Positions 5,571 to 54,783 of a DNA stretch of 64,000 bases are shown here, piece by piece. Origin of the DNA: Isurus oxyrinchus (taxonomy: Eukaryota); NCBI GenBank assembly GCA_026770705.1, contig JANJGN010000036.1:1798001-1862000 (forward strand), read 5' to 3'. The notes under the pieces are model-generated. The model had not been told where the DNA came from, made no database searches, and saw only the letters and a list, made by a program, of their open reading frames with translations. How positions within the stretch are numbered: the first letter of the stretch is position 1; each line of letters begins with the position of its first letter. A program made the translations under genes and the position numbers.

Positions 5571-7423
5571 CTCTTTTGTATCCTGTCGGATCGTCTCGCC
5601 TCTGTTAGATTGGGGCCAACTGTGTATTAATGGTTTAGGTATAAACTGAAACTTTATGCCAGTCTGGATAATCTATAATCAATTACAGAAACACTGCATG
5701 ATAAATATTCAAATGTTCCCCAATAAGTCAATGTTCCACCAACATTGCACTGTTTCCACAACATGAAGATGGATGGGCATGGACAATGTGCACGATACGA
5801 CCGCCTTCCTTCTCCCACCCCTGCAATGGCCATTTCTATTTGTTCACCTGATATAATTTTGCCAATGTTAGACTCATTGGGCGGTTACAGCACAGAAGAG
5901 CCAATTCAGCCTTTTGTGTCCATGTTGGGTCTCTGAAGGAGGAAATCACTTGGTCCACCCCCTCCCCATCCCCGCCATTTCCCCATAGCCCTGGAAATTA
6001 TTTTTCTTTCTATTTTCTCATAATTATCCAGTTTCCTCATTCAGGACCCTTCCACCAATGGCAACAGTTTATCCCTATCCACTGCCTTCAGACACTTCTT
6101 GATTTTTAATATCCCTATCAAATCTCCTCTCAACCTTCTCTCCTCCCAGGGAAAAAAGGTGCCAATTTCCCCACACTAACTTTGGAACTGAATTTCCGTA
6201 TCCTTGGAAACATTCTCGAAAATCTTGTCTGCAGCCTCTCGACAGCCGTCACTCCTTTCCCAACGTGTGGCGCCTAGAACTGGGCACACTACTCCGGCCG
6301 AGGCCGAAATCAATCTTTGTATGCAGCTTTCGTATAAATTTGTGCTTTTGTACTTTGTGCCCGTGTTAATAAAATCCAGAATCCCCTGCGCTTTATCTAC
6401 TGCTCCATCAACCTATTCCGTCATATTAAATGATTTGAACACGTGTACAACCAGATGACCCTGTTCCTGAACCGCTTTTAGAATCGCAAGCTTTATTTAA
6501 TATTGCCTCACCTCTTTTTTCCTAAAAAAAACGGATCACTTCACACTTCTGTGTATTAAGTTTAATCTGCCGCCTGTCAGCCCATTCCACCATCCTGTCT
6601 GTGTTCACTTGAAGTCGATCACTTCCACGTTTTGTATCAATCGCTAATTTTGAATCTGTACCCTGTACACCATTGTCTAGGACAATAATATATATTAAGA
6701 AAAGCGCGGGCCCTCAAAACCAAGTCGTGGGGAACCCCAATCCATATTTCCCTGCAGTCTCCATTAATAACCAATAATTGACCGTTTTATGGGGCTAACA
6801 GACCGGAGAGTGGTTTCACAAAATATTGATGGCGGGAAATGCACTTCTTAATCTCATGAATTTCCTGAATTTGATTTTTAATTGGCACAAAAATGTCTAT
6901 CAATCTGACCTGTTTGACTCTCAATCCGCACTGCACTTGACCCTCTCTCTCTCTCTCTCGAACTGGATTCGAACAAAAATATCAATGAAGTATTTGGTCT
7001 TCTAATACCTGGCTGATGTGACAGAAAAAATCTGATGCAGAAAATCGTCGATCCGTCTTAGATTCAAACTTGAGAGATCATAGAGCATGTCAGCGTATTT
7101 CATTGGAGTTAATGTTGGGGTTGGACTGGGTTACACCAAGTATTAAATATAGAGAGGGTGTTCGGTTTAAACATTTCAAATGGCCCAGTTACTCACTTTT
7201 CATTGTGGGATATTTGCCTCGTTCTCCTGAGAGTAGAATCTGTAAGTAGCAAGTTGAAACAGCGAGAAGGGACATTGGACAACCAGTTGTGAAAATGCCC
7301 CTGGTAAACATCCATCCTGACCTGATCTGCCGGTTCTTCGTGTCCCAATTAAAATGAGATTCAAGAGCAGAACTGGGATCGCCGCCACCATTCTCACAAC
7401 ATTACGATTTGGAATTCACCATC
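5571..7423 (-). pseudogene. D' : 3' remnant of a second subfamily-2 gene (TM and cytoplasmic exons)
   Basis: 102-nt TM exon 7423-7322 (GW*IPN..VAAIPVLLLNLILIGTRRTGRS) matches the D TM exon in length and flanks; 7239-7193 matches 45741-45694; 5619-5571 matches 44983-44934. Confidence 0.75.
5870..6760 (-). mobile_element. CR1-type LINE fragment
   Basis: Reverse-strand CR1 RT C-terminal and 3' UTR-like sequence. Confidence 0.65.
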
Positions 7424-7675: not shown

Positions 7676-8396
7676 TGTTCTCCCTATTTCTAACCTAGTT
7701 AAATGGTGACTTTTGGGACATTCATCTATCTTCCTATCTCTGGACCTCTCTCTGTCCCTTCCTTATTCTCTCTTTCTCACTCAGTCTCTAACGAACGCTA
7801 TCTCTATCCTTTTCGATCCAGTTAAACACTTCTGTATAAGTCTTATTCTCTTTCTATCACAGTCCCTTCATCTCCCTATCTCTATCTGTATATCGATCTA
7901 ACCATCTCTCCATCCATCTCCCCATCCATCTCTATGATCCGCTTCTCCCACTCTCCTAAATCTCCCGCTCTCGCTCTCCCCTCTCTCCCCATCTCTCCCT
8001 CTTCCCCACTCTCTCCTTCTCTCCCCCTGTCCCTCTCTCCCCATTTCTCCCTCTCCCTCTCACGTACTTACCCTCTCTCCTCTATCTCCATCTCTCTCTC
8101 TCCCCTGCTCCCTCCCCATCTCTCTCTCTCTCTGTCGTTCCCTCCTTCCCCATCTCTCCGTCTCCTCCCCTCTCTGACTCTCCCTCTCTTCGCATCTCTC
8201 CTATCTCCCTCTTTGACCGTCTTTCCTCTGCTTCCCCTCCCGCCCACTCTCACCTCTCTCCCCCTCTTCAACTGTTTCTCACTGTATTTCTATCATGGTT
8301 AAACAGTTTTCTCTAAGTGATCTGCTCTGTCGATCACTCTCTATCCATCTATCTCTGTCTGAAGATTTATTTGCTGGTAAAACAGTGTTCTATATA

Positions 8397-10730
8397 CCTC
8401 TAAAAAACAGAATTACGTGGAAATACTCAGTAGGTCTGGCAGCATCGGCAGAGAAGGAAAGAGTTGACGTTTCGAGTCCTCATGAACCTTTAACAGAACT
8501 GAATGTATATTAGGAGAGGGGTGAAATATCAGCTGTTTTAAGGTGGGGTGGGGGTCTGGGGAGAGAAGTGGGAGGGGTGGTGTGGTTCTGGGGACAAGCA
8601 AGCAGTGATAGGTGCAGTTAATCACAAGATGTCACAGAAAAAACAACAAAGAAGTGTTGAAGGTGGTGATATTATCTAAATGAATGTGCTAATTAAGAAT
8701 GGATGCTAGGGCACTCAACGTACAGCTCAACTGGCGGTGGGGTGGAAAGACTAGCAGGGCATAAAAGATATAAAAATAATGGAAAAAGCGGGAAAAGAAA
8801 AATCTATATAAATTATTGGAAAAAGCAAAAGGAACGGGGAAGAAACGGAAAGGGGGTGGGGATGGAGGAGCGAGTTCAAGACCTAACGTCGTTGAAATCA
8901 ATATTTAGTCCAGAAGGCTGCAAAGTGGCTAGTCAGAAAATGAGGTGCTGTTCCTCCAGTTTGCGCTGGGCTTCACTGGAACAATGCAGCAGGCCAAGGA
9001 TGGACATGTGGGCAAGAGAGCAGGATGGAGTGCTAAAATGGCAAGCGACATGGAGGTTTGGGTCTTTCTCGCAGACAGACCACAGGTGTTCTGCAAAGCG
9101 GTCGCCCTGTTTACGTTTGGTGTCTCCAATGTAGAGGAGACCCCATTGGGAGCAACGAAAGCAGGAGACTAAGTTGGGGAAAATGCAAGTGAAATGCTGC
9201 TTCACTTGAAAGGAGTGTTTGGACTCTTGGACGGTGAGGAGAGAGGAAGTGAAGGGGCAGGTGTTGCATCTTTTGCGTGGGCATGGGCAGGTGCCATAGG
9301 TGGGGGTTGAGGAGTAGGGGGTGATGGAGGAGTGGACCAGGGTGTCCCAGAGGGAACAATCCTTACAGAATGCTGCCGGGGAGGTGAAGGGGAGCTATGT
9401 TTGGTGGTGCCATCATGCTGGAGTTGGTGGAAATGGGAGAGGATGATCCTTTGAATGCAGAGACTGGTGGGGTGATAAGTGAGGACAAGTGGGACCCTAT
9501 CATGTTTCTTGGAGGGAGGAGAAAGCATAAGGGTGGATGTGCGGGAGATGGTCTGGACACGGTTGACGGCTCTGCCAACAACCGTGGATGGAAAACCTCG
9601 GTTAGGGAAGAAGGAGGACATGTCAGAGGAACTGTTTTTGAAGGTAGCCTCATCAGAACAGATGTGACGGAGGTGAAGGAACTGAGAGAATGGGATGGAG
9701 TCCTTACAGGAAGCTGGGTGCGAGGAGCTGTAGTCGAGGTAGCTGTGGGGGTCGGTAGTCTTGTAATGGATATTGGTGGACAGTCTATCACCAGAAATTG
9801 AGACAGAGAGGTCAAGGAAGGGAAGGGAAGTGTCAGAGATGGACCACGTGAAAATGATAGAGGGATGGAGATTGGAAGCAAAATTTAAAAAGTAACCATC
9901 GATGTACCAGAGAAAGAGTTGTGGGAGGGGGCCGGAGTCGGACTGGAACAAGGAATGTTCCATATACCCCATAAAGAGAGAGGCATAGCTGGTGCTCATG
10001 CGGGTACCCATAGCCACACCTTTTATTTGGAGGAAGTGAGAGGAGTTGAAGGAGAAATTGTTCAGTGTGAGAACAAGTTCAGCCAGGTGGAGGAGAGTAG
10101 TGGTGGATGGGGATTGTTTGGGCCTCTGTTCGAGGAAGAAGTTAAGGGCCCTCAGATCATCCTGGTGGGGGATGGGGGTGTAAAGGAATTGGAAGTCATT
10201 GGTGAAGAGGAAGCGGTTGGGGCCAGGGAACTGGAAATTGTTGATGCGACGTAAGGTGTCAGAGGATTCACAGATATAGGTGGGAAGGGACTGGGCAAGG
10301 GGAGAGAAATGGGATTCAAGATAACAAGAAATGAGTTCCGTGGAACAGGAACAGTCTACCAGGACAGTCCTGTTTGTGGATTTTGGGTAGGAGGTAGAAG
10401 CAGGCCGTCCTAGGTTGTGCGGCTATCAGGTTGGAAGCTCTGGGAGGACGATCTCCAGAGGAGGTGAGGTCAGTGACAGTCCTGGAAACAATGGCTTGAT
10501 GTTCGGTGGTGGGGTCATGGTCCAGGGAGAGGTAGGAGGAAGTGTCTGTGAGTTGACGCTCAGCCTCCACGAGGTAGAGGTCAGTGCGCCAGACAACAGC
10601 AGCATCACCCTTGTCAGCGGGATGGTGACAATGCTGGAGTTGGAGCTGAGAGAACGGAGTGCAGTAAGTTCAGAGAGAGAGAGATTAGTATGGCTGAGAG
10701 GAGCAGAGAAATTGAGATGACTCATGTCAT
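8397..10730 (-). mobile_element. Degraded Penelope-like retroelement (RT plus GIY-YIG endonuclease)
   Basis: Fragments EAERQL.D..YLSLDHDPT..FYLLPKIHK, AMGTRMS.SYA.LFMGY, CSQ.GLLYIGDTKR..DRFAEHL; frameshifted. Confidence 0.9.
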
Positions 10731-19787: not shown

Positions 19788-20126
19788 TGACCGTCTCTCA
19801 GGCCGTGTTCCCGCAATCTCCGGCCGCTCAGACCGTCTCGGTGGGCAGTAGCTTCAAGGTGCATTGCCACACAGGCTGGTTATCAAGTGGAGCTGTTTAC
19901 TGGTATAAACAGCGGCACCGAGAGCACCTGCAGTTCGTTCACAAGGTGAGAAAGCACATCCCTGCAGAGGGAAGGTTTTCAGGAGAAATCAACGACAAAT
20001 CTACCATTTTCTCCCTGGTGATCGAGGAGGTCCAGAGAAATGACACGGGTGCTTATTACTGCGCAGCCCGGAAAACCCCTGGAAAGTCCCTGGTCTTCGG
20101 GACCGGCTCCAAATTATTCACCACAG
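19788..20126 (+). CDS. Gene B V-J exon (open)
   Basis: VFPQSP..VHC..WYKQ..GRFSG..FSLVI..DTGAYYC..FGTGSKLFTT, 339 nt. Confidence 0.93.
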
Positions 20127-20174
20127 GTAAAAAAAAAAAGAGAAATGAGATTGTTTACTCGCTTTATCACTGTT

Positions 20175-20505
20175 TTTTCCTTCGCTCACGGGATGTGGGT
20201 GTTCTGGCTCGGCAAAGCATTTATTACCCATCCCTAATTACCCTTGTTCAGGAGGCATTTAAGAGAAGGTGTGGATCTGGAGTCAGATGTAGGGTCAGAC
20301 CGGGTAAGGGCGGCAGATTTCCTTCCCTAAAGGGCATTCGTGAACCAGATAGGGGTTATTTTCTTAATCGATTCCTTGTCATCATTAGACTTTTAATTCC
20401 AGATTCTTATTCCGTTCCAATTCCTCCCTCTGCCGATTCGAAGCCGGGTCCCCAGAGCATTACTCACTCTCTTGATTACCCCAGCCCAGTGAAAATACCA
20501 CTCCG
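20175..20505 (-). mobile_element. HE1-like SINE in gene B V-C1 intron
   Basis: GGATGTGGG..GCATTTATTACCCATCCCTAATT..GGCAGATTTCCTTCCCTAAAGG. Confidence 0.75.
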
Positions 20506-20582
20506 CACCGTGTCCCCCAAACTACCAATAACCAGAAATTCATGGTGAATAATAATTACATCTTACCTCCCAAACTCGCCAG

Positions 20583-20884
20583 GTACGCCGACAATATTCC
20601 TTTTAGCTCCACCGGTGGAGAAGCTGTTGAGATGGAGACTGTCCCATTGATGTGTTTGGTGACCAACGCGGCCTCTGTTACCCTTTCCGTTCGCTGGAAT
20701 TTTTCCACGTGGGAGACAGAGGGATGGACGGATTCTGGAACAATCGACTCCGAAGGGGTGTACAATATAAGAAGCCTCATCAGGGTCCCACCAGGAACGT
20801 GCAGCGGGGGCGGGTTCTGCACTTGCTCTGTTCAAATCTCCTCCACTCAAAGTCTCATCAGTGAAAGGTTCTCATATCAGAGAG
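20583..20884 (+). CDS. Gene B C1 exon (1-nt frameshift near start)
   Basis: GTPTIFLLAPPV / EAVEMETVPLMCLV..VRWNFS..EGVYNIRS..CTCSVQ. Confidence 0.88.
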
Positions 20885-21004
20885 GTAACTATTGACATTG
20901 TCCCTTTACTGGTATAGTTAATTATTGATGTGAGACTGAATGGTTCGCGACACCACATATGTTATCTTAATAGTTGTTCCCTTTCCATGTATATGGACAC
21001 AGGC

Positions 21005-21610
21005 ACAGATTCGTAGAAAGTCTACAGCACAGGAAGAGGCCATGGTGCCTGCCTCGTACAAAAACGAGCTACCCAATCCTACTTTCCAACATTTAGTCCG
21101 TATTCCTGCATCTTACAGCGCTACAGAAACACATCCGGTTGCCTTTTAAATGAATTGAGGGTTTCTGCCTCTCCTGCCCTTTCAGCCAGTGAGTCTCAGA
21201 CCCCTACAACACTCTGGGTGAGAAAAATCTTCCCTCGTCTCCCCTCTATTTTTTCTACAAATCACTATAAACCTGGACAATGACATCTCTGCTAAAGTAA
21301 AAAAAAACATTCACATCCCCTCTATCCAGACTCCACACAATTTTGTACACATCAACCCCATCTCCCATCAGCCTCCTCTGCTCCAAGGAGAATAGTCCCA
21401 GCCTATCCAATGTTTCTTCATAGCTGAAATTTTCCAGTCGTGGTAACATCCTTGTCAATTTGTTTTGTATTCTCTCTAATGCAATCAAGCCCTTTCTGTA
21501 ATGAGATGACCAGAACTGCATACACAACTCACGCTGCAGCCTAACTCATGTTTAATACAGTTCCAGCATAGCCTCACTGCTCTTGCATCCTAAACCTCGT
21601 CAAATAAATG
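21005..21610 (-). mobile_element. CR1-type LINE 3' fragment
   Basis: CMQFWSSHYRK..ALERIQ..TRMLP.L..SYEE.L.RLGLFSLEQRRL. Confidence 0.85.
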
Positions 21611-21949
21611 AAAGGACCTCGGGCTAATTACCCGGTCAATTACCTCTTCCGTATCTCTCAATGTTTCAGTGTTTAGCTCCCTAAAATTTGAAGCTCATCT
21701 GTTTAACTATGCCAGAGATACATGGTGGGAGATAAGGAATCAGGCTGAAATTTTGCAGTTTAAAATAGGAAAATTGAAATTCAATTTCCAGTTTGAAACT
21801 TGAGCAGTATTTTGCTTCTATCTTCCCAAACGCATCCATTACAATACCATCAACATGTGCTCTTACCCTCATATAGCTTTTTCCGCCGTGTGTTTAGGAG
21901 TTTCTCTGCAATGAGACTTTCCGTTGTAGACATTTCCACATTATAACGA

Positions 21950-22110
21950 TAAAAGAAGCAAAATACGGCGGATGCTGGAAATCTGAAGCAAAAACAGAAA
22001 AAAAAAGGCCTGGAGAAGGGTCACGCAGACTCGAAATGTTAACTCCGTTTCTCTCTCCACAGATGCTGTCAGGCCCGCTGAGTTTTTCCAGTATTTTCTA
22101 TTTTTGTTCC
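21950..22110. mobile_element. Internally inverted Penelope terminal fragment in gene B intron
   Basis: CGGATGCTGGAAATCTGAA followed by the opposite-orientation GACTCGAAATGTTAAC..GAGTTTTTCCAG. Confidence 0.7.
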
Positions 22111-22777
22111 TCATTCTAACCACCCTGAACAAAAAAAAAAAAACACGGTTTCGCCTGAAACGCCAGTTGGGGTTCATAATTGGCAGAAGAGCTGAAAGCT
22201 CGACATTCCAGGAGTCAAAGCGGACTTTGCATTAAATTCAGATTGATACAAGAGTATGGGGAGTAGGTCCAAGTAGTGGAGCCGAATTTTGATTCCTTTG
22301 GCGAAGAAGAATGTTCTACAATAGACACTAAACCACAAGACAGCAATAACACTATCAGAGACATAGTAAGCCACTTGATTGGCACCTTATAAATGCTCAC
22401 CCTCTGCATGGGCCCAGTGGCAGTAATATCTACCATCTACAAGATGTCCTGCAGAATCTCGCCATGGTCACGTTGTTCTCTAATCTTATTGTGTTTTCTT
22501 GCATGTACCTCTTAGTCCTTGTCTCTTCCAGTCTCGCTCTCTCTCGCCACCAATCTGTCTATCCCTTTTTATTTTCATATTTTTATTTCACTCGGGTTGT
22601 TGATTATACTGGTAAAACTAATTTTGAGTCCCCATCCCTATTTTGCGTGGGCGTTCGTGTGTATCCTTGAAATTTTGGCAAGGGACAATCCCGTGTAAGG
22701 GATTCTTCAATATTGTTTCTCCCCCCACCCCACCCCACCCCCTCACCCCCGCTACCCCTACCCCGCCCCTTGCTCAG

Positions 22778-22891
22778 AGCCGCGAATATCTACTTGTCTC
22801 CTGTTGTTTTACAGAAGTTCGTTGGTGATCTTTCTCCTTCTATTGACCTTGACTGTCGTCGCCGGATGGAGCTACATAAAGCGACATTCAG
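22778..22891 (+). CDS. Gene B TM exon
   Basis: EPRISTCLLLFYRSSLVIFLLLLTLTVVAGWSYIKRHS; CTCAG acceptor, G|GTAGGA donor. Confidence 0.8.
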
Positions 22892-23026
22892 GTAGGAAGG
22901 GCTGTATATTTTGGGGGCTCTACACACCTGAATGAGAGTCGATGCAACCTTTGCCTCTTTTTGACACGTTAATTAAACCTATCAGGGTACAAATTACAGA
23001 CATTTATGCCCTTTTTTATATATCAG

Positions 23027-42297: not shown

Positions 42298-44165
42298 CCA
42301 AAACACATATAAAACCAATATCCATCTTCACACACTGAACTTCAGTCAATCACCTTGTTTGCATATCCGCCAATGCACTTGCACAACAAAATGAAATGGT
42401 CACCAGCTTCAGCACCTTTCTGGGGGAGGGACATTCAGATTTACACTCCACATTCCACAAAACTTGTTTGTCTAAAACGCAATGCAATGACAGTAAAACT
42501 CTGGCATGTAGGTTTAATGTTGAACACAAACCAAAAGTCAACGTGAGAAAATGATATGTAACCATGAGACATTTCCTGCATCACTGCCCGTGTCCCTCTC
42601 CTGCTGTGTTCTAATTGTGTAAATGATAGAACACATCACATCTCAGACAATGAAACCCAACGCCAACAGCATCTCAATACAGGACTGATATTGTCGGCTG
42701 AACAGAAATTGCAGTTTTATTCAAATGGCATTTAATTATAAAGTAATTAATAATCATTACAATCATCCGGTGCATCGTTATAATCGCAAAGTAATTTATT
42801 TTATTCAGATGCAAACATTAAGAAATCAACATCCTGTCAGTAACTGGAGTTACAGGATCAGCAGAAAATGCCCAGAAAAACGATGGAAGGTCCCTACTGC
42901 TTGCTCAATGTTTCCTTCACACTTGAGATGCACGATGACGGTGGAATATCCTTAACAATATCCAAAACAAATTCTACATTTAGCAAAATAAGCCAGTCTT
43001 TGTAGATCTGGGCAGTGAACGAGGAACGTTTATTTGTTTGAAAGGAGTCTCCTTTGCTCCATGTTGATTTCCACAAAGCTGTTGGTTCTTTGGCAATTCC
43101 TGTCTCCTCCATAATTCATCAGACAGAAACAGTCCCGAATCTCAGCTGCGACCTGCCTCTTTTTTGATCTTTTATCCAATGCAGCCAAGTCCAGACAGGC
43201 GTACAGAGGTCTGCCTTGGGTCTTGGAGACATACTTAAACATTAAAAATCGAAAGTAATAAAAGGACAAGTCAGATTATCCACTTCCCCAACCGCGTTTC
43301 ATAGAGTCATGGAATGAAGCAGCGCAGGAGGAGGACATTCGGCCCATTGCGTCTGTGCCAGCTCTTCGAAAGAACAATGCAATTAAAAACATTGTATCTT
43401 CTCTGTCCCCATATCGCTGCCAGTATTTACCCTTTGACTATGTTTTTGTAATTCCTTCTTGATAGTTATTATTGGACCTTCTTCCAATGCCCTTTATATC
43501 AGTTTGAGGATTTTTTTGCTTCATCTGTCTGAATTGAGACAGGGAAGCAGGACCCGGAAAGCAACCAGAAATCACCAAAGTTTCATCAGAAAACTGGGAT
43601 GATGAGTTTATCAATTTGATTGGATTGTATTGTTGTTAATTAGCCAATCCGATCCCCATGTTTCATGATCAGCCATCTACACGATTGAGTAGAGCCAACA
43701 GCACGAATCACATTCAGAGGAATCACACTCACACACACCCAAAAGTAAAAGACTTGCGTTCTCTTGGCCTGTCACGAACTAAAGAATCCTCAGAACATTT
43801 TACACTCACCTATTTCAGTTGTGGTCTCTATCCTTATTGCAACCGGACAGCCAGTCTGCGCACAGTAAGATCCCATAAACCACAATGTTGTAATGACCCT
43901 GATTTTGTAAAAGATGTTGGTTCAGAGACAACATAAGAAACGGGGCACCAGGAACAGCCGCTCCCCAACAGCCCAAGCACTGCTCTTCTCGCAATAGTGG
44001 CGGTGCCATCTTTTAATTGACCTGAGAGGGCAGACAAGGCCTCAGTTTAATGTTTCATGCGCAAACAGCACCTCAGACAGCGCAGCACCTGCTCTGGTGG
44101 TTCAGTATAGATTTTCTGCTCAAGTCTCTGGATACACACGCACACACACACTCACACACAGAAAT

Positions 44166-44308
44166 NNNNNNNNNNNNNNNNNNNNNNNNNNNNNNNNNNN
44201 NNNNNNNNNNNNNNNNNNNNNNNNNNNNNNNNNNNNNNNNNNNNNNNNNNNNNNNNNNNNNNNNNNNNNNNNNNNNNNNNNNNNNNNNNNNNNNNNNNNN
44301 NNNNNNNN
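44166..44308. other. N gap within CA-rich repeat
   Basis: Run of N. Confidence 0.99.
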
Positions 44309-46723
44309 CACACAAAATACACAAACAGAGACATGCAGACACATACGCACACACACACACACAGACATAAACACACAAAGTGCGCACACACATGCATGGA
44401 GATGCAGACACAGTCACAGACACACACAAACACAGACACATACACATTCACACACACACATACACACACACACTTTCTGCCCGAACTCGTTCCATCTTTG
44501 TCAATTTACAACGGAAATACATGTTGATTTATCTATAAAACTCCTTTGGGTTTTGCCTTAACTTAATCGTAATTCCATTGGCTAATGTACTTACTGAATT
44601 GGTTGGCGTGGGGAGTCAGAAAGGTGGGAAACGAGGGAGGGGGATTCGACTCACTGTAGGCGCAAATAAAAATAGCAGAAAGATAAAAAGTTTAGCTGCT
44701 GGAAATCCGCAGTGAAATTACTCTACCCTTTGTATGGACAGATGGGGAGAGGAACTTGGGGTTATGTTCTGATTCCACGAGGAGGGATGAGTGGCATTTA
44801 GTACAAATTTAGATGTTCCAGTCTGGGACCTGGTTTCTATTAACCATCTGAAATGTGCAGCATGGGATTCCTTGCAGCTTATCCCAGAAAAACACGTGTT
44901 TGTATATTATTACAACAGTGTAAAAAAACTCACCGTTATTGCATCCTGAAATGCCTGCTTAGCCTCTGTTTGACGGTGGTCGCCTGTGTTATTAATGGTT
45001 ATGATCAGAATTGAAATGTTTCCCAGCCTGGCTAATCCATAATTAATTACAGACACACCATGTGACAATGATCCGCAAATCTTCCAATTGCCCCAATATG
45101 TCAATGGGCCCCAGATGTCAATGGAGCCCCAATCCACCGAAGCTTCCCCAATACGTGAAAGGTCCCTCAATAATTCAGTGGAGCGGTATTCACCATTGGG
45201 TGGACAGGCACTATCTACTCTTGGTGCTAAGCATCTATTCTCCATCTGGTCTATTACTAACAGTATTTGTACCAGTAATTGCCACTTTTTATGGGGCCAA
45301 CAGGCAGCAGAGCGATTGTAAAACATTTTGATAACAGGGAATGGTCTTAAGCATTTTTCCAATTCCAGCCACTTGTCATTCAATCCGTGCTAACATTTGA
45401 ATGCAACTTACCCGTGTGCAGCTCATTCTGTCCCTCTCTTTGCCTTTTCCCTCTCAAGCTAAAACTGCCTTCAAACAAAAAGATCAAACATGTCTTAAGT
45501 CTTTTAAATCCTGGGCTCAAGTGCCAGAAAATGTTGAGAAGGAATTTGTCGAGTGGTCGTAGAATAAATCTTAAAAGATCATGGAAAATGTCAGCATATA
45601 TCATTGGAATCAGAGTTGGATTTCAAACGGGTGAGGCACATTGTCCAATATAGAGAAGGTGCTCGGGATGAATTTTGCAAATGGTTCAGTTACTCAATTT
45701 CCATTGTGGGATCTCTGGTATCGTTCTTCTAAAAGGAGAATCTGCAATTAGCATTTCAACACTACAAGAAGGGAACCAAGTGAGACAAACAATTATTAAA
45801 ATGTCCCTGATAAATATCAATTCTCACCTGATCTGCCGCTTTTAAGAATCCAAATGGAAATAAGGACCAAGAGTAGAACCAGTATCACCAGGACAGTTAT
45901 GAGAACAGGAGGGGCCAGACTGCACCATCCTACAGAGACAAAACACTTAGAACCTGCTGCTCGGTCAAATCATCCTTTTCTGGGATTATCTGATGGGAAA
46001 AGTGACCCAAATGGAAGCCCAGAAACAGTCCATTCGAACGATCGTGCCAGTGCAGGCCCTTTGAAAGAGGTATCTAATTAGTCCCATTCTCCCTGCTCTT
46101 CCCCGCCCATAGCCATGTAAATGTTTCCCCTCCAAGTATTGATCCGATTCCCCCTTTTGAAAGTTCCTATCGAATCTGCTTCCACCGCCGTTTCAGGCAG
46201 CGCCTTCCAGATCACAGCAACTCGCTGCGTTTTAATGAATTCTCCTTATCACCCTCTCTGGTTCTTTTCCCGATTCTCTTCAAGCTGTCTCCTTCTGGTT
46301 ACCGACCCCCCTGCCAGTAGAAACATTTTCTCCCAGTTTACTCCATCGAAACCCCTCATAATTTTAAACGCCTCGATTTAATGTCCCCTCAACTTTTACT
46401 GTTCTAAGGAGAACAACACGAGATTCTAGTTCCTCCACATTAACTGAAGTCCGCCATCGCTGATCCCATTCAATTAAATGCCCGCTATACCCTTTCTAAG
46501 GCATTCTTGCCTGTTTCCTGCTTCTAAAGTACATCCAGTGCAGAACGGACGTCAAATCCATTCCAAAGTGCACCGCCTGTGAAAAAAAGCAGTGGAAGTA
46601 GATTCAACAAAAATTTTCAGAAGGAAACCCCGTTATGACTCGGAGAGGGAAATGTGAAAGGGCTTTGGGGAAACTGATTTCAAAGTTGAATAAAAACCTT
46701 CATTGTTGAAATAACATTCTCAC

Positions 46724-47046
46724 CTGTCCCTACTACTTTGGGGAACGACACGCACTTTATCCAATATTTGACTGAAGACCCCAGTTGAACAATACAAATA
46801 CAAACAGCGGCGCTTCTCCGGGTTTCCCTCAGCACCACGACGTGACTTCTGATACTGTAGGTCCCATCCGCCTCCATTGTACCGGGATCTCTCAGTCCAT
46901 CAGTGGCCAGGCCGGAAATATTCCAGAAAATAACAATCTGGTTGGAAGAAACTCCACTGACCAGACACACTAAGGGGACCGTTTCCCACAAATGCAGCTC
47001 ACCTGCGGAGCAAACATCAGCACAGCCGCCTTGTTGGTGGAACTCT
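46724..47046 (-). pseudogene. Gene D C1 exon
   Basis: ESSTNKAAVLMFAP/GELHLWETVPLVCLVSG..IFWNISG..DGTYSIRSHV..CICIVQ. Confidence 0.88.
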
Positions 47047-49019
47047 CTGGACAGAGATTGGGGCACAGTTAGTGATTAATTTGCACGAAATGATAATGCT
47101 CTGCATGATCGGAATTCATTTCACTTGCTCTCTCACCTCCAACCAGTAGTGTTGGTGCATTCTGTATCGGTACATCGCTACCCCTACGAGCACAGTGATA
47201 GGAACCCGAGTCATTCACCTGGACATTGCGAATTTCCAGAATCATCAAATTTGTGCTGTTGCCTTTTTTTGGAAATAAATTTTCAACCGGTCTCCTGACA
47301 GGGCTGGCTGTCGATTAGTGTCGGGGCTTCACCCACAGGGTGGTTGTACCAGAAATAGTGAGACACCGATTCCACTTCGTAACCGCATGGATTCCACCGT
47401 TTCTCCGACTTTAGCTGTCGTGATGATGGGGCTCTGAGACAGACAGGGTTCGGATTCTGCAACTAGAGGGATTTTTGTTACATTATCACTGGTTAATGAG
47501 GGATAGGAAGCTGCTGCTTTGAAACATTTCACATTTAATTTAAGCAAAGTTACATCATTGGCTTTACATATTCTTGGTTAGATTAATTCTCCAATTAGAT
47601 TTTTTTCGCTTCATAAGAGGAACTAGTAAACATACTCACATGATTAGGTCAAACTCCTTCACCTGGCCTCTGGGTTACATTTTCAGTTTAGTAAACACTG
47701 ATTCTGGCTCATTCAAGTTTCAAATTCTCCCCTGCCTCTTACTCACCATATACCCGCAGCATTTGGAGAATAAGCATCAGAATTAACGATTCCAATGACA
47801 TCTTGACGCGCTGAGTATTTCCTGTTTTCGCTCTCACCAGTTTAGTGATTGCAGGCGGAGTGGCCGCAGACAGCCCTGAGCTCAGTCGCAGTCAACAGCT
47901 TCACTTTCAGATGCGTTGGAAACTATGACGAGTTATGCTATGGAAAGTATGACGCCATTTTGGGTGGGTGTCCTGGTGAATACCACATGCATTTTTCATA
48001 CTGTGGTCACCGTTTGTGCGTCACAGCGGCCAAGTTGCAGCATGTTTATAAATAAATTTACTGGGTTGTGGTTCATTGTGTCGAGGGTGCGGGTGTCAAA
48101 GAATACTAATTGGGTGTATGGATGCTGAATAGTGTAGTTAAAGTTTATTTCATTCTGGGGATATCATGGCCTCTGGCAAGGCCAGAATGCATTAACCATC
48201 ACCGAATGTCACTTGGGAAGGTGGTGGTGAGCTGCCTTCCTGAACCACTGAAAGTACACACACAGTGCTTTCAGGGTGGGAGTTCCAGGATTTTGAATCA
48301 ATGACAGTGAAGGAACTGTGATGAATTTCCAAGTCAGAGTGATGAGTGGCATGGAGGGGAATTTGCAGTGGGCGGTGTTCCCAAGTATTTGCTGAATTTG
48401 GATGTCAATGTTGCAGAGTACGCAGGTTTGGAAAAAAACGCCAAGAATTTAGTGTTACGTGATAATACTCACTATTAGCTATTCTGTAAACAGGTTGTAC
48501 AGGATTCGTAAGACATTCTGGTTAACACAGAGACTGGATATATTGGATGAAATGTATGTGGATTAATTTTAATTTTAATGACATGTATCTTATTCAATAT
48601 GCACAAATTACGCAGAGGCCTAGAGAGGAATTCTAATGCAACAAACACGATCACTCACTGCACTTATCGAGAATCTAAATGAACGAATCTCTTTCGAATT
48701 CAGTTCTGCCCCTTAAAATGTTCGTGCACCGTCCTCCTTTCTGCTAAGTCACATTGAGTAGGTTTTCGGACTGACTTATTCTATTATATAAAGCGCCAAG
48801 GGGGGTTACCGTGAATTCAGTTCATTGTTCAGTTCTGAGTTCATTGTTGAATTCTAATTACCAATGACTTGAGTGATAGGTCCCGTGAAGAGAGTTTCAA
48901 ACAATAATACATCTTTCACTTTGCATTGTTATCTAAGCGCGTTTACAGCAGTTCAATGGAAAATTCACTGCACAGTTATGAATTTGACGTTGTCGTTAAG
49001 CTGCTTTGATGTTGCAGTT

Positions 49020-50050
49020 TACAGAGTTACATAGAACGTACAGCACAGAAACAGGCCATTCCGACCCGAATACTCGTGCTTGTGTTTATGGTCTGCACGA
49101 GCCTTCTCCCACCCTCTCTTCATCTCAGCCCAACAACATTTCCTTTTATTCCTTTCTCCCGCATTTGTTTATCCAGCTTCCCACTGAAATGCATCTCTGA
49201 AATAGACTGAAGCATTCCCTTTGGGAGCGGGTTCCAGATGCTCCCCTGGGTAAAGATGTTTCCCCTGAATTTCAGACTGGCTTTATCTCATATTAATCAC
49301 CTCTCGTTACGAAGGGCGATAGGAACACAGGAGCAGGATTAAGCCATTGGGCCATTCGAGACTGCTCCACCATTCAATAAGATTATGGCCGATCTGGTTG
49401 TGGCCTCAACTCCACTATGCTGTCTGTCGCTCATACGCCTTGACTCCCGTGCCTAACAAAAACCTGTCCGTCACGGGGCCTTGAATAAATTCAAGGACCC
49501 ATCCGCGACTACTTTCTGGGGAAGAGAATACCACACATGAGTGACCCATTGGGTGAAAACAAATCTCGTCATCTCTGTCTTAAAAAGGAGACCTTGATTT
49601 TTGATCGATGTCCAGAGATTTGGCAACAACAGGAAGCACCTTCGGGGTATCCGCCCTATCAAGGCCCCTCAGGAACCTATATGTTTCAATACGATCACCT
49701 TTCATTCCTCTAAACCCCAAATGGAATTTTTGAATTCTTGAGTGATGACCAATATTTTTGAAATCCTGCAGAATTAGAGCCAGCTTCCCTACGGCTGCCT
49801 ATTTGGACCATTTCATAATTGTAAAGACCTCGATCTGGTCGTCCCTCAATCTCTCATCCCCACCCTCCAAAACACTTTTTAGAGAAACGAGCCTCAGCCT
49901 GTTCATTCCTTCCTGTTATTTATAAGCTCTCAGTTCCCGTATCATCCTTGTGAAATATTAACTGCACCTTTATCAATATCTCTGTATCTGAATATGGAGA
50001 ATATTTCTCGAATATGCAGGACTGTGTTCTGTACTCCAAGTGTAGTCTAA
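49020..50050 (-). mobile_element. Nested CR1-type 3' fragments between genes D and E
   Basis: CAGCACAGAAACAGGCCATT and AGGAACACAGGAGCAGGA..CCACCATTCAATAAGAT CR1 3' ends. Confidence 0.6.
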
Positions 50051-50120
50051 CTAATGTGAATACATACCTGGTGTATTTTGGAAATCAGATGATGCGTGCG
50101 CGACAGCACTTTGACCTGCG

Positions 50121-50140
50121 CTAAACAGGAAAACCACAGA
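50121..50140 (+). promoter_or_regulatory. Adjacent ETS (ACAGGAA) and RUNX (AACCACA) motifs about 170 bp upstream of gene E ATG
   Basis: CTAAACAGGAAAACCACAGA; related AAACAGGAAAC/AAAGAGGAAAC strings lie upstream of F and C (A has AAACAGGCAAC). Confidence 0.45.
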
Positions 50141-50307
50141 GAGCTGTCTACCTCGGCACTATTTTCCAACGCCCATCGTTTAATAATAAACATAGAACGC
50201 CATTCAGGCTGCTTATTTCACACCTCCTTCGCACCGAAAGAATGAGAGCGAGTTCTCAGTGAGATTCGGATCGGGGCTCAGAGTCTGACCGCCTGAAGTC
50301 AGGGACA

Positions 50308-50350
50308 ATGAGATACCTCGGTGTGTGTGCATTGTCCCATCTCTTCCAGG
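50308..50350 (+). CDS. Gene E leader exon
   Basis: ACAATGA start, MRYLGVCALSHLFQ, phase-1 donor CAGG|GTAAGA; joins in frame to VIVSHRLLSQSP. Confidence 0.7.
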
Positions 50351-53300
50351 GTAAGATATCCTAACATTTTCAGATAGAGTGAAGGAGGGTTGAGATAGAG
50401 TAAATAAGGAGAAAATCGTTCCACTGGAAAGAGGATCGGTAACCAGAGGGAGACAGATTGAGGAGAGGAGAGCGTTTCAGGTAAACCATTAGAGAAAGTT
50501 ATAATCTCTTGAACAAAATAAATTGCACAACGTCAGCGGAAAATAAGAAATAGCAAAGAGTGAATGAGAGAATAATTTTAAAAATTGGGAATTTTAAGTC
50601 ATTAACTTCAGTTCCCATGTGCGTACCCCAGTAAATAAAACAGAATTGCTGGTGAATGGACTCGTACAGTGCCTTTGGAAAGACCGGGGAAAACAAGGCA
50701 AACAATCGCTTAATCAGCCCGATTTTAATTGTGTGGGGGTGCAATTTTCCCATATGGACTATTTTTAAATAAACGATTCTGCTTCCTCCATATGGGGGTG
50801 CATTCGCCGGTGTGTGTCTTCGGGGGAGACGGGTTGGGGGTGCGGGGTGAGGGGCTGCACAATACCCTGAGATGACTTTTTTTTTCTCCCTTGCTCAGTT
50901 ATTGTGTCTCATCGTCTCTTGTCCCAGTCTCCGCCGGTCAAGACACTCACTGCAGGGAGTCGCGCCAAACTGAGTTGTCACACGGAAAGGTCCAAACCTG
51001 GGCTCATATTCTGGTACAGACAGCGGGAGCGAAACGACATGAAGCTGGTTTACACAGCGCACAAGCTCACCCCAGCAGATGGGAGGTTTTCCCGCGAGAT
51101 TTCTGACAAAACGGGTTATTATTCACTGGTCATTGCGGATACCCGGAGAAATGACTCTGGAATGTATTACTGTGCCATCCGCAATTACCAGAACAGGGCC
51201 TTAATATTCGGAAATGGATCCCAGTTAGTGATTACAGGTAAATTTCGTCATTATTCCGTCGCTTTTGGTACTTCTACAGCAATTAAAAGTCTCTGGTTTC
51301 AACTGTTAATGGTTTGTCTGTTTCGTTTGCCAAATTTAGAGGACTCCCCGACCATTTTCCTCCTCACCTCGCAAGAGGATGAGATTCCTTCGGTGGAAAG
51401 GGTCCTGTTGTGTTTGATCAGAGGCTTGTCTCCCGATTCCTTTTTCGTCCGCTGGAATATTTCCGGGCGAGATACAGAGGGAAAGACCGATTCTGGGTCA
51501 ATTGAGTCGGACGGCACCTACACCATCAGGAGTTACACCAGCCTCTCGGCGGAAACTTGGAGCAGCGGCGCTCTCTGTACTTGCGCCGTTCAAATCAACT
51601 CCAGTGAAAATCTTCTCAGTGCAAGTGTCTCATCTCAGAGAGGTAGCTGCTAACAGTGACCGTTTACATACCTATTTATTGCTGATGGGAGGCTTTGACA
51701 ATTTTGTAAATTAGAATCGTGCATATTTCCGTGTGAGTCCATGCCTCACCATTTTATCATTGACCTATCACAGATCTCTCAATGTTTCAGTGTTTAGCTT
51801 TCTGAAATTTTAACTCCATCTGTTCTCTCTACACCAGAGAGCTAGGGTCGCTCCGTCACTGAGATAGATAGTTGTACACTAAGGGAATATGGGATCCGGG
51901 CAGTGTGAGTAATGTGAAGTTGATGTACAATATTAACCATGGTCTTATTGAACGGCGGATACCCTTCTGGGACCGAAACATCTCCTGCTCCTATTTCTTA
52001 TGTTCTTGTGTTTGGCTCGGCATATTGACATGGTTGCATGCCAGTGGACGACTTGTCAATGTGTATAATTGTAAGGTTTGATTGCAGTCCCAGCGTACCT
52101 CTCTGTCTCACCATGCCTGTGTACAATTACCTATTCATCTCTCGATCTACTTAACATCACAATATGTATGTCTGTCTTAGTTAAACAATGAGGTATAAGG
52201 TATCTTCTCCATCTGTGTGTCTGTCTGTTTATCTGTCTTTCCATCTGTCTCACTCTCTATCAATCCATTTCTGTCCGACTGCAGTCTAAGATATCTGTTT
52301 TCCTATTTGTCTGCCTATATATCTGGCTGTCTCTGTGTCTGAACAGCTCTCTCTACAACTCCCACTCTCTCTCCGTGTCTCTCACAGTCCCTCTCGCTCT
52401 GTGTCTATTACTTTCTCCCTGTCTCGCACTCTGTCTATGCTTTGAAACATGTATTGAACTCTCTATCTATATCACTCTCCCTTTGTTTATGTTGTCTATT
52501 TCTATCCTGGTTAAATGGTGCGTTATAAGACATCTGGGACATTCATCTATCTTTCTATCCCTCGACCTGTCTCCATACCTCTGTTTGCCTCTGTCTGCAT
52601 CTTGCTCTCTGCCTCTCTCTCTCTCTCTTTGCCTCTTCCTCGCTCTCTCTATCATTTTCCATCCAGTTAAACCGCTCTGTGTTAATTTGCTGCTTTATCT
52701 ATCACACTCTCTTGATCTCTCCGACTCTATCATTCTATTTATCTCTCAATCCATCTTTCCACCCATTTCTCCGTCCATCTCTCTGCTCTTCTCTCCATCT
52801 CTCCACCATCACTCCTCCGACTCCCCCTCCTTATATCCCCCATCTCTCCTTCCTCTCTCTCCATCTCTCCCACCCCTCCTTTCTCACACTCTCCCTCCCT
52901 ATCTTTCTGCCTATCTCCAATCTCTCCATCTCTTGTCCACTCTCCCCATCCCTCCCTCTCTCCCCATTTCTCCCTCCCCGTCTCTCCTTAACTCTTCCTC
53001 TCTCCAAATCCCCCTCTCCCCTATCTACCACCTCTCCCTCTCTCTCACTCTCTCCCATCTACCCCTCTCTTCCTCTCTCCACAAATATCCTTTTCCTCAG
53101 CATCTCTCCCTCTCTCCCTGTATCTCCCTTTCTCTCAATCATTTTTCCCTTTCTACCCAACTTTCCTCTTTCGCTCTCTAATTCCTCTTATCCCCGTTAC
53201 CCCTCTCTCCACCTCTCCAACTATTTATCTCTTTTTTCAACCTAGTTGAGCAGTTTTGTATCAGTGACCTACTCTCTCGAACACTGTCCGTTTCTCTCCG

Positions 53301-54783
53301 GTTTAACATTTCTGTGCTATTAAAACAGATCTCCATCCATTTTTCTCTGTCATTCTCCCTCTATCTCTCTCTTGTTATCTCTCTATCTTTCAACGATTTA
53401 AATAGTGCTCCATAAGATCGTTTCTCTCTCTCTCTCTCTATTTCTGTCTCCGATAAACAGTGCTCTATCTATTTCTCTGCCTCTCAGTGTTCTATTCAAA
53501 CAGGGCTATATATGATTGTTGCTCTCACTTGCTATCAATTTGTCATTCTCTTCCGCTATCCCTTCTGCCTCTTTCTTTCTCTTCCAACTACTGTCCGGTC
53601 TCGCAGTTGTTCTATAAGATCTCTGCTCTATTTTCAGGATGATGAAATATGGAAAAATCTATTTCAGTTTTCGGGTGAAATCGCAAATTCAGGTTTGTCA
53701 TTTTTTCACTTGTTTGATTACTTCCACAAAATTTATTTTCAATGAAAGCTTTTTTGCAGATTCTCCGCTACCTGCCACCTGCAGTTTTCCGCTTTTATGG
53801 AGTTTGTCCGCGTCGGCGCTTCTCCTTCTGGGGATGATCCTTGTGGCCGGGAAAAGGAGCTGCAGGAACCAGCAGACAGGTAGCGATTGTTGGGGGGACG
53901 CTGTAATTCCGCGGTGCTCTCAATACGTCCGTTACTCAATGCGTTCTTGACACTTTCAGCCGGTTCAGTGGGAAACGGAGCCATTTATGTTCAGTGTGAA
54001 ATGTAGCCATTGATGCTCAGTTCAAACTTTACTTTCTAACAGGCAACATGAACAATGATCAGGAACTGACAGACTCCAGATCACACCGACAGAATGAAAA
54101 GGTAAAAGAATGGAACTGTTGTTGCCACTACACGTGAAGGCGTTTCACTGATTTGTTTTATCTAAGCTTTAAAATTCATCATTATTATTGTAAGAGTCAG
54201 GAAAACGTTGCGTCATTTGTAATTCTGGATGGCAGAAATTAGGCTTCAATCCGTCTCGTTCGGGGAGATTGAGGGACAATCTGAGCGGTTTAAGGTGATA
54301 AAAGGATACAACAGTGTCAATAGGGAGAAGCTATCTGCTCCGGTGGCGAGGAGGGGTGGGGGCAGATTGGTACAGGGAGTAGCGTGAGGTTGGGATGGGG
54401 TGGTGGGGGGAGGGGTGGCGGTGGTGGCTAGAGTCCAGGTCTCAGAACCTTAAAATTAGAGCCAGGTCGTTCACGGTTGATGTCAGGAAACCTGGAACTC
54501 ACTCCCTTCAAAAGCTGCTGTGGTGAGGTGCCAATTGGAAATGTCAAAATTGAGACTGACAGATTTTGTTGGGTACAGGGATTAAGGATTAAGGAACCAA
54601 GGTGGGTAGATAGGAGTTATGGTACAGATCCGCCATGATCAAACTGAATAGACTTGAGGGGCTGAATGTCCTCCTCCTATCCCTATGATGATGGTGTTTG
54701 TTATATTTATATATTCGGTTTTTATTGTTTCTCCACAGACACTTTATGCCCGCTTGGCTTTTAAGGAGAATCCCAAACTCTGA
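50308..54783 (+). CDS. Gene E: apparently intact non-rearranging VJ-C1-TM IgSF receptor (PRARP/VJC1-like), 6 coding exons, 302 aa
   Basis: Exons 50308-50350, 50899-51237, 51340-51642, 53760-53879, 54043-54101, 54739-54783. All have GT-AG sites and compatible phases (1,1,1,1,0); total 909 nt with no internal stop. Protein: MRYLGVCALSHLFQVIVS leader, V-J, C1, TM, tail ending TLYARLAFKENPKL*. Confidence 0.85.
50899..51237 (+). CDS. Gene E V-J exon (germline-joined V domain)
   Basis: LSQSP..LSC..WYRQ..GRFS..YSLVI..DSGMYYC..FGNGSQLVIT in one 339-nt exon, CTCAG acceptor and ACAG|GT donor. Confidence 0.95.
51340..51642 (+). CDS. Gene E C1-set exon
   Basis: SPTIFLL..LLCLIRG..VRWNISG..DGTYTIRS..ETWSSG..CTCAV; 303 nt, phase 1-1. 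Confidence 0.93.
52350..53480 (+). repeat. CT-rich low-complexity intron tract; paralog about 7680-8350
   Basis: Polypyrimidine tract; the 268-aa and 188-aa S/L/P ORFs here are compositional artefacts. Confidence 0.85.
53760..53879 (+). CDS. Gene E connecting peptide/TM exon
   Basis: TTGCAG acceptor; DSPLPATCSFPLLWSLSASALLLLGMILVAGKRSCRNQQT; ACAG|GTAGCG donor; homologous exons in A, B, C. Confidence 0.85.
54043..54101 (+). CDS. Gene E cytoplasmic exon 1
   Basis: 59 nt, phase 1-0, GNMNNDQELTDSRSHRQNEK; same length in A, B and C. Confidence 0.85.
54739..54783 (+). CDS. Gene E terminal exon with TxYxxL motif
   Basis: CCACAG acceptor; TLYARLAFKENPKL*; 45-nt coding part also in B and C. Confidence 0.85.
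   Translation, partial: TLYARLAFKENPKL

What the first reader, a model, noticed from the sequence alone, without database searches (positions are those of the whole stretch)
43030..54783. Head-to-head pair of two divergent subfamilies (D and E): candidate two-chain receptor
Seen: D (-, ATG 47801) and E (+, ATG 50308) diverge from a 2.5-kb spacer. Their C1 domains are clearly related (LxCL, WNISG, DGTY.IRS, CxC), but V, TM and tail differ strongly. Both have a Cys just before the TM, and the same D-type/E-type adjacency is retained in the duplicate at 5.6-8.3 kb. Established: TCR chains pair through a connecting-peptide Cys. Inference: co-regulated chains of a non-rearranging heterodimer. D itself is disabled here, so any partner of E must lie elsewhere or E homodimerises.
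Basis: partly seen in the sequence, partly recalled or inferred. Interest (0 to 1): 0.78.

Follow-up and report, generated by a model that had tools for sequence, protein, structure and literature searches.

The report
Shark germline two-chain immune receptor cassette
This is one copy of a shark gene pair, repeated about fifty times head to head, for two ancient types of antibody-shaped surface chain that need no DNA rearrangement and likely pair like the two chains of a T-cell receptor, but the partner would usually come from another copy because both neighbours are intact in only 3 of 54 copies.

Summary
Observation mostly confirmed. E (50308-54783, +) is an intact six-exon VJ-C1-TM gene with a Tyr tail; D (47801-43030, -) is its frameshifted head-to-head neighbour. 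They sit in a 3.5-Mb shark cluster with at least 75 D-type and 54 close E-type C1 exons. 53 of 54 E genes face a D gene or remnant across a homologous spacer, so the orientation is one inherited cassette. Both are intact in only 3 of 54 (Fisher p=1), which argues against a co-regulated cis pair. Pairing itself is supported by sequence: D and E are separate lineages from sharks to turtles; the stalk Cys is almost invariant; D has the VL-type Pro and E the VH-type Met/Leu; and the Gln/Gln contact of shark chains has become Arg (73/74 D) against Glu (45/45 E) in a mostly turtle set. Best reading: disulfide-linked D-E heterodimers formed in trans, mainly inhibitory. Binding was not tested. The family is probably PRARP/VJC1 (papers not held, recalled). 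The '5.6-8.3 kb duplicate' is only a collapsed relic. This scan has noted the family before in other genomes and elsewhere in this one.

The parts
50308..50350 (+). E exon 1, leader (43 nt)
   Evidence: GT donor; joined to V in a relative's contig
50899..51237 (+). E exon 2, single-exon VJ domain with FGxG G strand, no recombination signal needed
   Evidence: (V-set 2.6e-13)
51340..51642 (+). E exon 3, C1-set domain with CxC in the F strand
   Evidence: (C1-set 5.2e-11)
53760..53879 (+). E exon 4, stalk Cys + uncharged TM
54043..54101 (+). E exon 5, cytoplasmic
54739..54783 (+). E exon 6, ITIM/ITSM-like T-x-Y-x-x-L motif and stop
47802..50307 (.). 2506-bp spacer; homologous across cassettes; D-side and E-side halves are retained independently
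47747..47801 (-). D exon 1, leader (55 nt, open)
47137..47456 (-). D exon 2, VJ domain, frameshifted (320 nt against 327)
46724..47046 (-). D exon 3, C1 domain, frameshifted (323 nt against 330)
45828..45929 (-). D exon 4, stalk Cys + uncharged TM (open)
45698..45728 (-). D tail exon 1 (31 nt), donor mutated
45412..45464 (-). D tail exon 2 (53 nt)
   Evidence: splicing seen in a relative's contigs
44934..44983 (-). D tail exon 3 (50 nt)
43030..43221 (-). D last exon with Tyr motif; reads through to 63 codons where intact copies stop at 26
7322..7423 (-). Relic TM exon of the TM-Arg D subtype, stop at the Cys codon; all that is coding in the '5.6-8.3 kb duplicate' besides a tail exon
7684..8401 (+). 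Relic of E intron 3, joined by deletion to the D relic
   Evidence: 75% to L087

Best explanation
E is an intact, non-rearranging VJ-C1 membrane chain and D its broken head-to-head neighbour in a cassette copied about fifty times; E likely works as a disulfide-linked, Fab-like heterodimer with a D-type chain made from another copy in the cluster, and likely signals inhibition through its tail tyrosine. Shown: gene structures, the repeated cassette, independent decay of D and E, two lineages older than the shark-tetrapod split (moderate support), conserved interface residues and stalk Cys, variation concentrated in CDR-like loops, spliced transcripts of both types in a relative. Inferred: V-V and C1-C1 pairing, the interchain disulfide, pairing in trans, phosphatase recruitment, and ligand recognition by the loops. 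Homodimers may form as well, since shark chains keep Gln on both sides.
For: Two lineages: V tree D clade 41 rows (SH-aLRT 92) and E clade 32 rows (93), each with elasmobranch and tetrapod members. Position Trp+3 aligns with VL Gln38, which hydrogen-bonds VH Gln39 and is used for engineered charge pairs (PMC5297516, passages): Gln in 12/12 shark D and 14/15 shark E; Arg in 73/74 D-lineage and Glu in 45/45 E-lineage proteins among 120 mostly turtle hits, 1 unplaced. Trp+9 is Pro in D (12/12; 70/74) and Met/Leu in E (Met 13/15; Leu 41/45), the VL and VH pattern (that pattern is my own knowledge). Stalk Cys in 20/21 intact D and 31/31 intact E at similar height above the membrane, and in 64/65 and 41/41 of the tetrapod set; it persists in homologues that lack the spare C1 Cys (14 of 21 by an undercounting flag). 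Both lineages share a contig in basking shark, white shark, Mustelus, a caecilian, several turtles and alligator (contig lengths). Loop dN 0.29-0.36 against 0.12 in framework. Run X11 holds spliced contigs of both types. Trans pairing: both intact 3, E only 28, D only 2, neither 21.
Against: No binding or co-expression in single cells was measured. The Arg/Glu change is probably one evolutionary event and the 120 proteins are mostly turtle paralogues, so they are not independent. It is absent in sharks, and five elasmobranch E-lineage proteins carry Arg or His at that site. Shark D has lost the first Gly and usually the Phe of the FGxG motif. [quoted passage not shown] The tail motifs have Thr or Pro two residues before the Tyr, not the canonical ITIM residue. 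Tree supports are SH-aLRT from quick searches on about 110 columns.
Confidence: 0.58

Rival explanations
1. D and E are two families of independent receptors that each form disulfide-linked homodimers; the head-to-head arrangement is only the duplication unit.
For: D and E decay independently and keep separate promoter halves. Each has its own Tyr tail and needs no partner to signal. Gln at Trp+3 in sharks is compatible with self-pairing. UrIg2 is a homodimer.
Against: Arg against Arg or Glu against Glu at the two-fold contact would be unfavourable in tetrapods; the Pro versus Met/Leu asymmetry is kept across sharks and tetrapods; both lineages stay linked in every species where both were found.
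Confidence: 0.24
2. One reading: each cassette is a co-regulated, dedicated chain pair driven from a shared spacer.
For: 53 of 54 E genes face a D gene or remnant; 31 of 32 measured spacers are 2308-2608 bp; L003 is intact in both genes with both Tyr tails. This may have been the ancestral state.
Against: Both intact in 3 of 54, two of them duplicates with broken tails, Fisher p=1; intact lone D genes keep the D-side 600 bp (11-15 of 15) but not the E side (3 or fewer of 15); a 2.5-kb gap with repeats is long for one bidirectional promoter.
Confidence: 0.1
3. The chains are monomers and the stalk Cys bonds within the chain to the spare Cys of the C1 CxC motif, or is palmitoylated.
For: Shark C1 domains have three Cys, so a spare one exists.
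Against: Lungfish and tetrapod D-lineage proteins lack the spare Cys yet keep the stalk Cys; V-V interface residues are conserved while loops vary.
Confidence: 0.06
4. These are germline-joined Ig light chains or TCR chains, as database names suggest.
For: RefSeq names such as 'immunoglobulin kappa light chain-like'; nearest solved V domains are TCR alpha and Ig light.
Against: C1 domains group apart from shark IgL, IgH and MHC C1 (SH-aLRT 94); TM without TCR-type charges and a multi-exon Tyr tail; true IgL genes in the same cluster are a different, rearranging gene.
Confidence: 0.02

Closest known systems
PRARP1/PRARP2 (Fu et al. 2019, J Immunol 202:1992) and Xenopus VJC1 genes (Ohta et al. 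2019, J Immunol 203:1882)
   Same: Titles seen only in the reference list of PMC10751288: two non-rearranging IgSF genes. Recalled, not read: a pair of VJ-joined genes with V-C1 structure outside birds, ITIM/ITSM tail, disulfide-linked homo- and heterodimers in vitro, synteny with the CD1 region. All of these fit D and E; C36 carries PSMB4 and PRCC.
   Different: No PRARP sequence was available, so orthology is untested. Here the pair is amplified to more than 100 genes, with a TM-Arg subtype and interspersed rearranging IgL genes; I do not recall these being described, and my searches did not find them.
T-cell receptor alpha/beta and gamma/delta chains; Ig Fab
   Same: Leader / VJ / C1 / stalk Cys / TM layout; Fab-type interface residues.
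   Different: No rearrangement, no Lys/Arg pair in the TM for CD3, long Tyr-bearing tails, diversity by gene copy number.
UrIg and UrIg2 (PMC12227049, parts 1-4 of 8 read)
   Same: Shark non-rearranging single-exon VJ plus C1 domains, disulfide-linked dimers.
   Different: UrIg/UrIg2 have three to eleven C domains, are homodimers, are described as one gene each, lie in the MHC and the IgH/TCR-alpha-delta complex and are expressed mainly in liver and gill; D/E have one C1, two chain types and a Tyr tail.
Paired receptor clusters (teleost NITR, mammalian KIR/LILR/SIRP; recalled)
   Same: Birth-and-death cluster, inhibitory tails, a minority subtype with TM Arg and no Tyr tail.
   Different: Those are single-chain receptors without a VJ-C1 Fab-like two-chain design.

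Membership tests
PRARP / VJC1 non-rearranging genes (features recalled) | V and J in one exon | tested here: met
   FGxG in 15/15 E, degenerate in D
PRARP / VJC1 non-rearranging genes (features recalled) | One C1 domain, TM, tail with ITIM/ITSM-like Tyr | tested here: met
PRARP / VJC1 non-rearranging genes (features recalled) | Two paralogous types found together across jawed vertebrates | tested here: met
PRARP / VJC1 non-rearranging genes (features recalled) | Synteny with the CD1 / human 1q21-23 region | tested here: inconclusive
   PSMB4 and a PRCC exon on C36; PEX19 not found, UFC1 on unplaced contigs; human positions from own knowledge
PRARP / VJC1 non-rearranging genes (features recalled) | Direct orthology with the chicken or Xenopus sequences | not testable with these tools
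   papers not held; no hit carried the name
PRARP / VJC1 non-rearranging genes (features recalled) | Disulfide-linked dimers | not testable with these tools
   stalk Cys conserved; no experiment; complex prediction unavailable
T-cell receptor chains | RSS-guided V(D)J rearrangement | tested here: not met
   VJ is one germline exon in every intact copy
T-cell receptor chains | Basic TM residues for CD3 and a very short tail | tested here: not met
   uncharged TM in E and most D; tails of about 35-75 residues with Tyr; a single TM Arg only in a D subtype
T-cell receptor chains | Connecting-peptide Cys | tested here: met
Ig light chains | C1 groups with IgL and there is no TM | tested here: not met
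   TM exon present
UrIg / UrIg2 | Three or more C1 domains | tested here: not met
   one C1 exon per gene against PMC12227049

The most novel reading that the evidence does not exclude
Sharks keep a germline-encoded, combinatorial two-chain receptor repertoire: about 20 intact D chains times 31 intact E chains, some 600 Fab-like binding sites without RAG, with inhibitory and TM-Arg activating D chains setting the sign, encoded among rearranging Ig light-chain genes. The Gln/Gln to Arg/Glu switch shows the heterodimer has been under selection for over 400 million years, making it a living model of the two-chain receptor that preceded rearrangement.
Probability: 0.28. Interest if true: 0.87.

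Novelty: new variant of a known kind. Interest (0 to 1): 0.6.

Why it matters
The origin of rearranging antigen receptors is an open question, and the best-characterised shark candidates (UrIg, UrIg2) are homodimers. A non-rearranging family with two complementary chain types, conserved from sharks to turtles, would show that Fab-like heterodimer pairing exists without rearrangement and would give a testable innate repertoire in animals whose NK-type receptors are poorly known. The charge-pair signal gives a sharp experiment (swap Arg and Glu in turtle chains), and L003 supplies a naturally intact shark pair, so no pseudogene needs repairing.

Tried and rejected
Single-chain AlphaFold models were poor (D pLDDT 34, E 56); the fold search with the E model returned Fab light chains at about 20 A rmsd and is not used. 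No RNA holder was listed for this species' stretch; runs of organism B are only guessed to be RNA. Orientation in other species could not be read: no other animal genome is held; adjacent RefSeq accession numbers (XP_078390141/142, XP_041037741/742) are only a weak proxy for neighbourhood. Fu 2019, Ohta 2019 and Flajnik 2023 were not held; literature searches and a search of one paper's supplement found no description of this shark cluster, but most subscription papers are outside the library. Promoter motif counts (Ets- and Runx-like) had no chance control and are not used as evidence. The careful C1 tree did not finish; the quick tree is cited. My automatic stalk-Cys flag undercounts. First-pass gene calls had splice-snapping errors; final counts are. 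L030 and L098 are one gene and were merged; L047 is counted intact but has a frameshift near the C1 end and was left out. A homologue search with the spliced E leader-plus-V protein was not run; homologues come from single exons of other copies and database proteins. Rejected: IgL/TCR identity, UrIg identity, MHC linkage (class I is on C21 and C16), the 5.6-8.3 kb relic as a second pair.

Full report
Observation. The window is G000:C36:1798001-1862000 in a 4.98-Gb genome; the closest named proteins are from basking and white sharks. E is a complete six-exon gene, 302 aa, with GT-AG introns: leader, one exon for V plus J, one C1 exon, stalk-plus-TM, and two tail exons ending in a T-x-Y-x-x-L motif (Pfam V-set and C1-set). 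D starts 2506 bp away on the other strand, has the same plan with four tail exons, and is a pseudogene: frameshifts in V and C1 against the intact copy L003 and a mutated donor. Copies L015 and L017 are 97.7% identical and have the same broken exon lengths. In intact pairs D and E are 36-37% identical in C1, 27-29% in V and 17% in the TM exon. The 'duplicate at 5.6-8.3 kb' is a relic: a stopped D-type TM exon joined by a deletion to E intron DNA, with no V, C1 or E coding exon.

The cluster. These are lower bounds. I fetched 10-kb stretches around every listed D-type exon and every close E-type exon outside the window (extended in 59); of the 48 more distant exons only a few were examined. Of 54 E genes (53 in loci plus the window), 53 face a D gene or a D leader, V, C1 or TM remnant head to head, and the last faces a D terminal exon. 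The spacer is homologous throughout (25-30 of 30 full pairs share each 100-bp bin but the last, 22) and 31 of 32 measured spacers are 2308-2608 bp. So the orientation is real and stereotyped, but it is one ancestral cassette copied many times.

Is the neighbour the partner? Scoring leader, V, C1 and TM as open with canonical Cys and Trp: both intact 3, E only 28, D only 2, neither 21 of 54; Fisher p=1.0. Two of the three (L012, L019) are duplicates with broken tails; only L003 is intact throughout. Of 44 D genes with no E beside them, 16 are intact (one doubtful). Intact lone D genes keep the 600 bp next to their own start (11-15 of 15) and rarely the E side (3 or fewer of 15); E genes with only a D remnant keep the E side. 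Segmental duplicates make the rows non-independent, but the result runs clearly against selection on cis pairs or a required shared promoter.

Two old lineages. D and E relatives occur in Cetorhinus, Carcharodon and Mustelus on shared contigs, with adjacent RefSeq accessions in the first two, and further in Heterodontus, Stegostoma, Scyliorhinus, rays, lungfish, paddlefish, a caecilian, a newt, a lizard, turtles and alligators. Family C1 domains group apart from shark IgL, IgH and MHC C1 (SH-aLRT 94, quick tree). In a V tree of 95 rows the D lineage (41 rows, 92) and the E lineage (32 rows, 93) each hold elasmobranch and tetrapod members; a third group of 16 rows includes lungfish and sturgeon proteins. 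D-lineage V domains mostly carry an extra Cys pair after the C strand.

Evidence for pairing. The residue three after the C-strand Trp aligns with VL Gln38. VL Gln38 and VH Gln39 form a conserved hydrogen bond, and Q38E is rescued by Q39K (PMC5297516, passages). Shark D has Gln in 12 of 12 and E in 14 of 15 non-redundant intact V exons of standard length. Among 120 hits of a tetrapod profile, mostly turtles, D-lineage proteins have Arg in 73 of 74 and E-lineage proteins Glu in 45 of 45, one unplaced; caecilian, newt, lizard and alligator proteins follow the same split. At Trp+9 D has Pro (12/12; 70/74) and E Met or Leu (Met 13/15; Leu 41/45), the VL and VH pattern from my own knowledge. The stalk Cys is present in 20 of 21 intact D and 31 of 31 intact E genes, 26-27 and 23-25 residues before the first cytoplasmic basic residue, and in 64/65 and 41/41 tetrapod proteins with a TM. 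It persists where the spare C1 Cys is absent (14 of 21, undercounted), which argues against an intrachain bond. Against: the charge pair is probably a single event, is absent in sharks, five elasmobranch E-lineage proteins have Arg or His there, shark D lacks part of the FGxG motif, and UrIg2 shows a shark VJ-C1 protein can be a homodimer with another V geometry (PMC12227049, parts 1-4 of 8 read). No binding was tested.

Function. Amino-acid change is concentrated in CDR-like loops (dN 0.29 and 0.36 against 0.12 in framework; omega 0.86-0.90 against 0.41-0.51; no significance test), as expected for ligand-binding receptors. Most intact E tails, and D tails where the last exon lay in the stretch, end in a Tyr motif; a D subtype has a TM Arg and no such motif (intact in L065 and L034; also Heterodontus P0014), suggesting an activating form. 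Contigs from runs of a related organism, guessed to be RNA, join E leader to V and V to C1 (X11, one contig each) and join D TM and tail exons (X7, X9, X10, X11). This confirms the exon models and puts both types in one sample, not in one cell.

Neighbourhood. Eleven Ig light-chain V exons and eleven matching C exons lie inside the cluster; all V hits above 80% identity to one of them were there. The one read in full has V, a 12-bp-spacer signal and a separate J. MHC class I is on C21 and C16. C36 carries PSMB4 and a PRCC exon, both human 1q21-23 genes near CD1 by my own knowledge; PEX19 gave no hit and UFC1 lay on unplaced contigs.

Comparison and verdict. PMC10751288 (passages and a supplement search) names PRARP, NKp30 and UrIg as non-rearranging VJ genes. 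The PRARP and VJC1 papers were not held; from recall, PRARP is a gene pair with this architecture that forms disulfide-linked homo- and heterodimers, so the two-chain idea is probably not new for the family. Searches found no account of the shark expansion, within a library that lacks most subscription papers. Earlier notes of this scan describe the same family in other genomes and elsewhere in this one; they were read after my reading was formed. New variant of a known kind; interest 0.6.

Noticed in passing
G000:C36:1.50-3.69 Mb (L123, L124, L128): Eleven rearranging Ig light-chain V-J-C units of one isotype are interspersed in the cluster; no close copy was found elsewhere in the genome. 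Isotype not determined; sigma-2 by recall.
   Followed up: partly
L065, L034, L066-L070; window 7322-7423: D subtype with an Arg early in the TM and no Tyr tail, a probable activating form; most copies broken; L065 lacks the stalk Cys.
   Followed up: partly
window 19781-22900 (+); L099, L116, L118: A third type (B) within the E lineage; V open and C1 frameshifted in the window, V and C1 open in other copies.
   Followed up: partly
window 15.5-18.9 kb (+), 31.3-34.9 kb (-), 57.5 kb (+): Further broken E-lineage genes and a V fragment.
   Followed up: no
window 28.7 kb (+), 37.0-37.5 kb, 38.65-38.9 kb (-): Orphan copies of the D last exon region.
   Followed up: no
L004, L031, L035, L043, L059, L060, L073: D genes with fully open frames and Tyr tails whose V domain has lost a canonical Cys, mostly the B-strand one; possibly still functional through the extra Cys pair.
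   Followed up: no
L041, L045, L050, L054, L057: Intact D genes whose tail stops early in the third tail exon region, without TM Arg or Tyr motif: possible non-signalling partner chains.
   Followed up: no
proteins P0051, P0068, P0082, P0084, P0097, P0100 and others: A third V lineage of the family including lungfish and sturgeon proteins, outside both D and E clades.
   Followed up: no
turtle contigs: Turtles have independently sized multigene sets of both lineages on one small chromosome.
   Followed up: partly
window 8.8-10.8 kb: Reverse-transcriptase-like LINE fragment inserted into the relic cassette.
   Followed up: no
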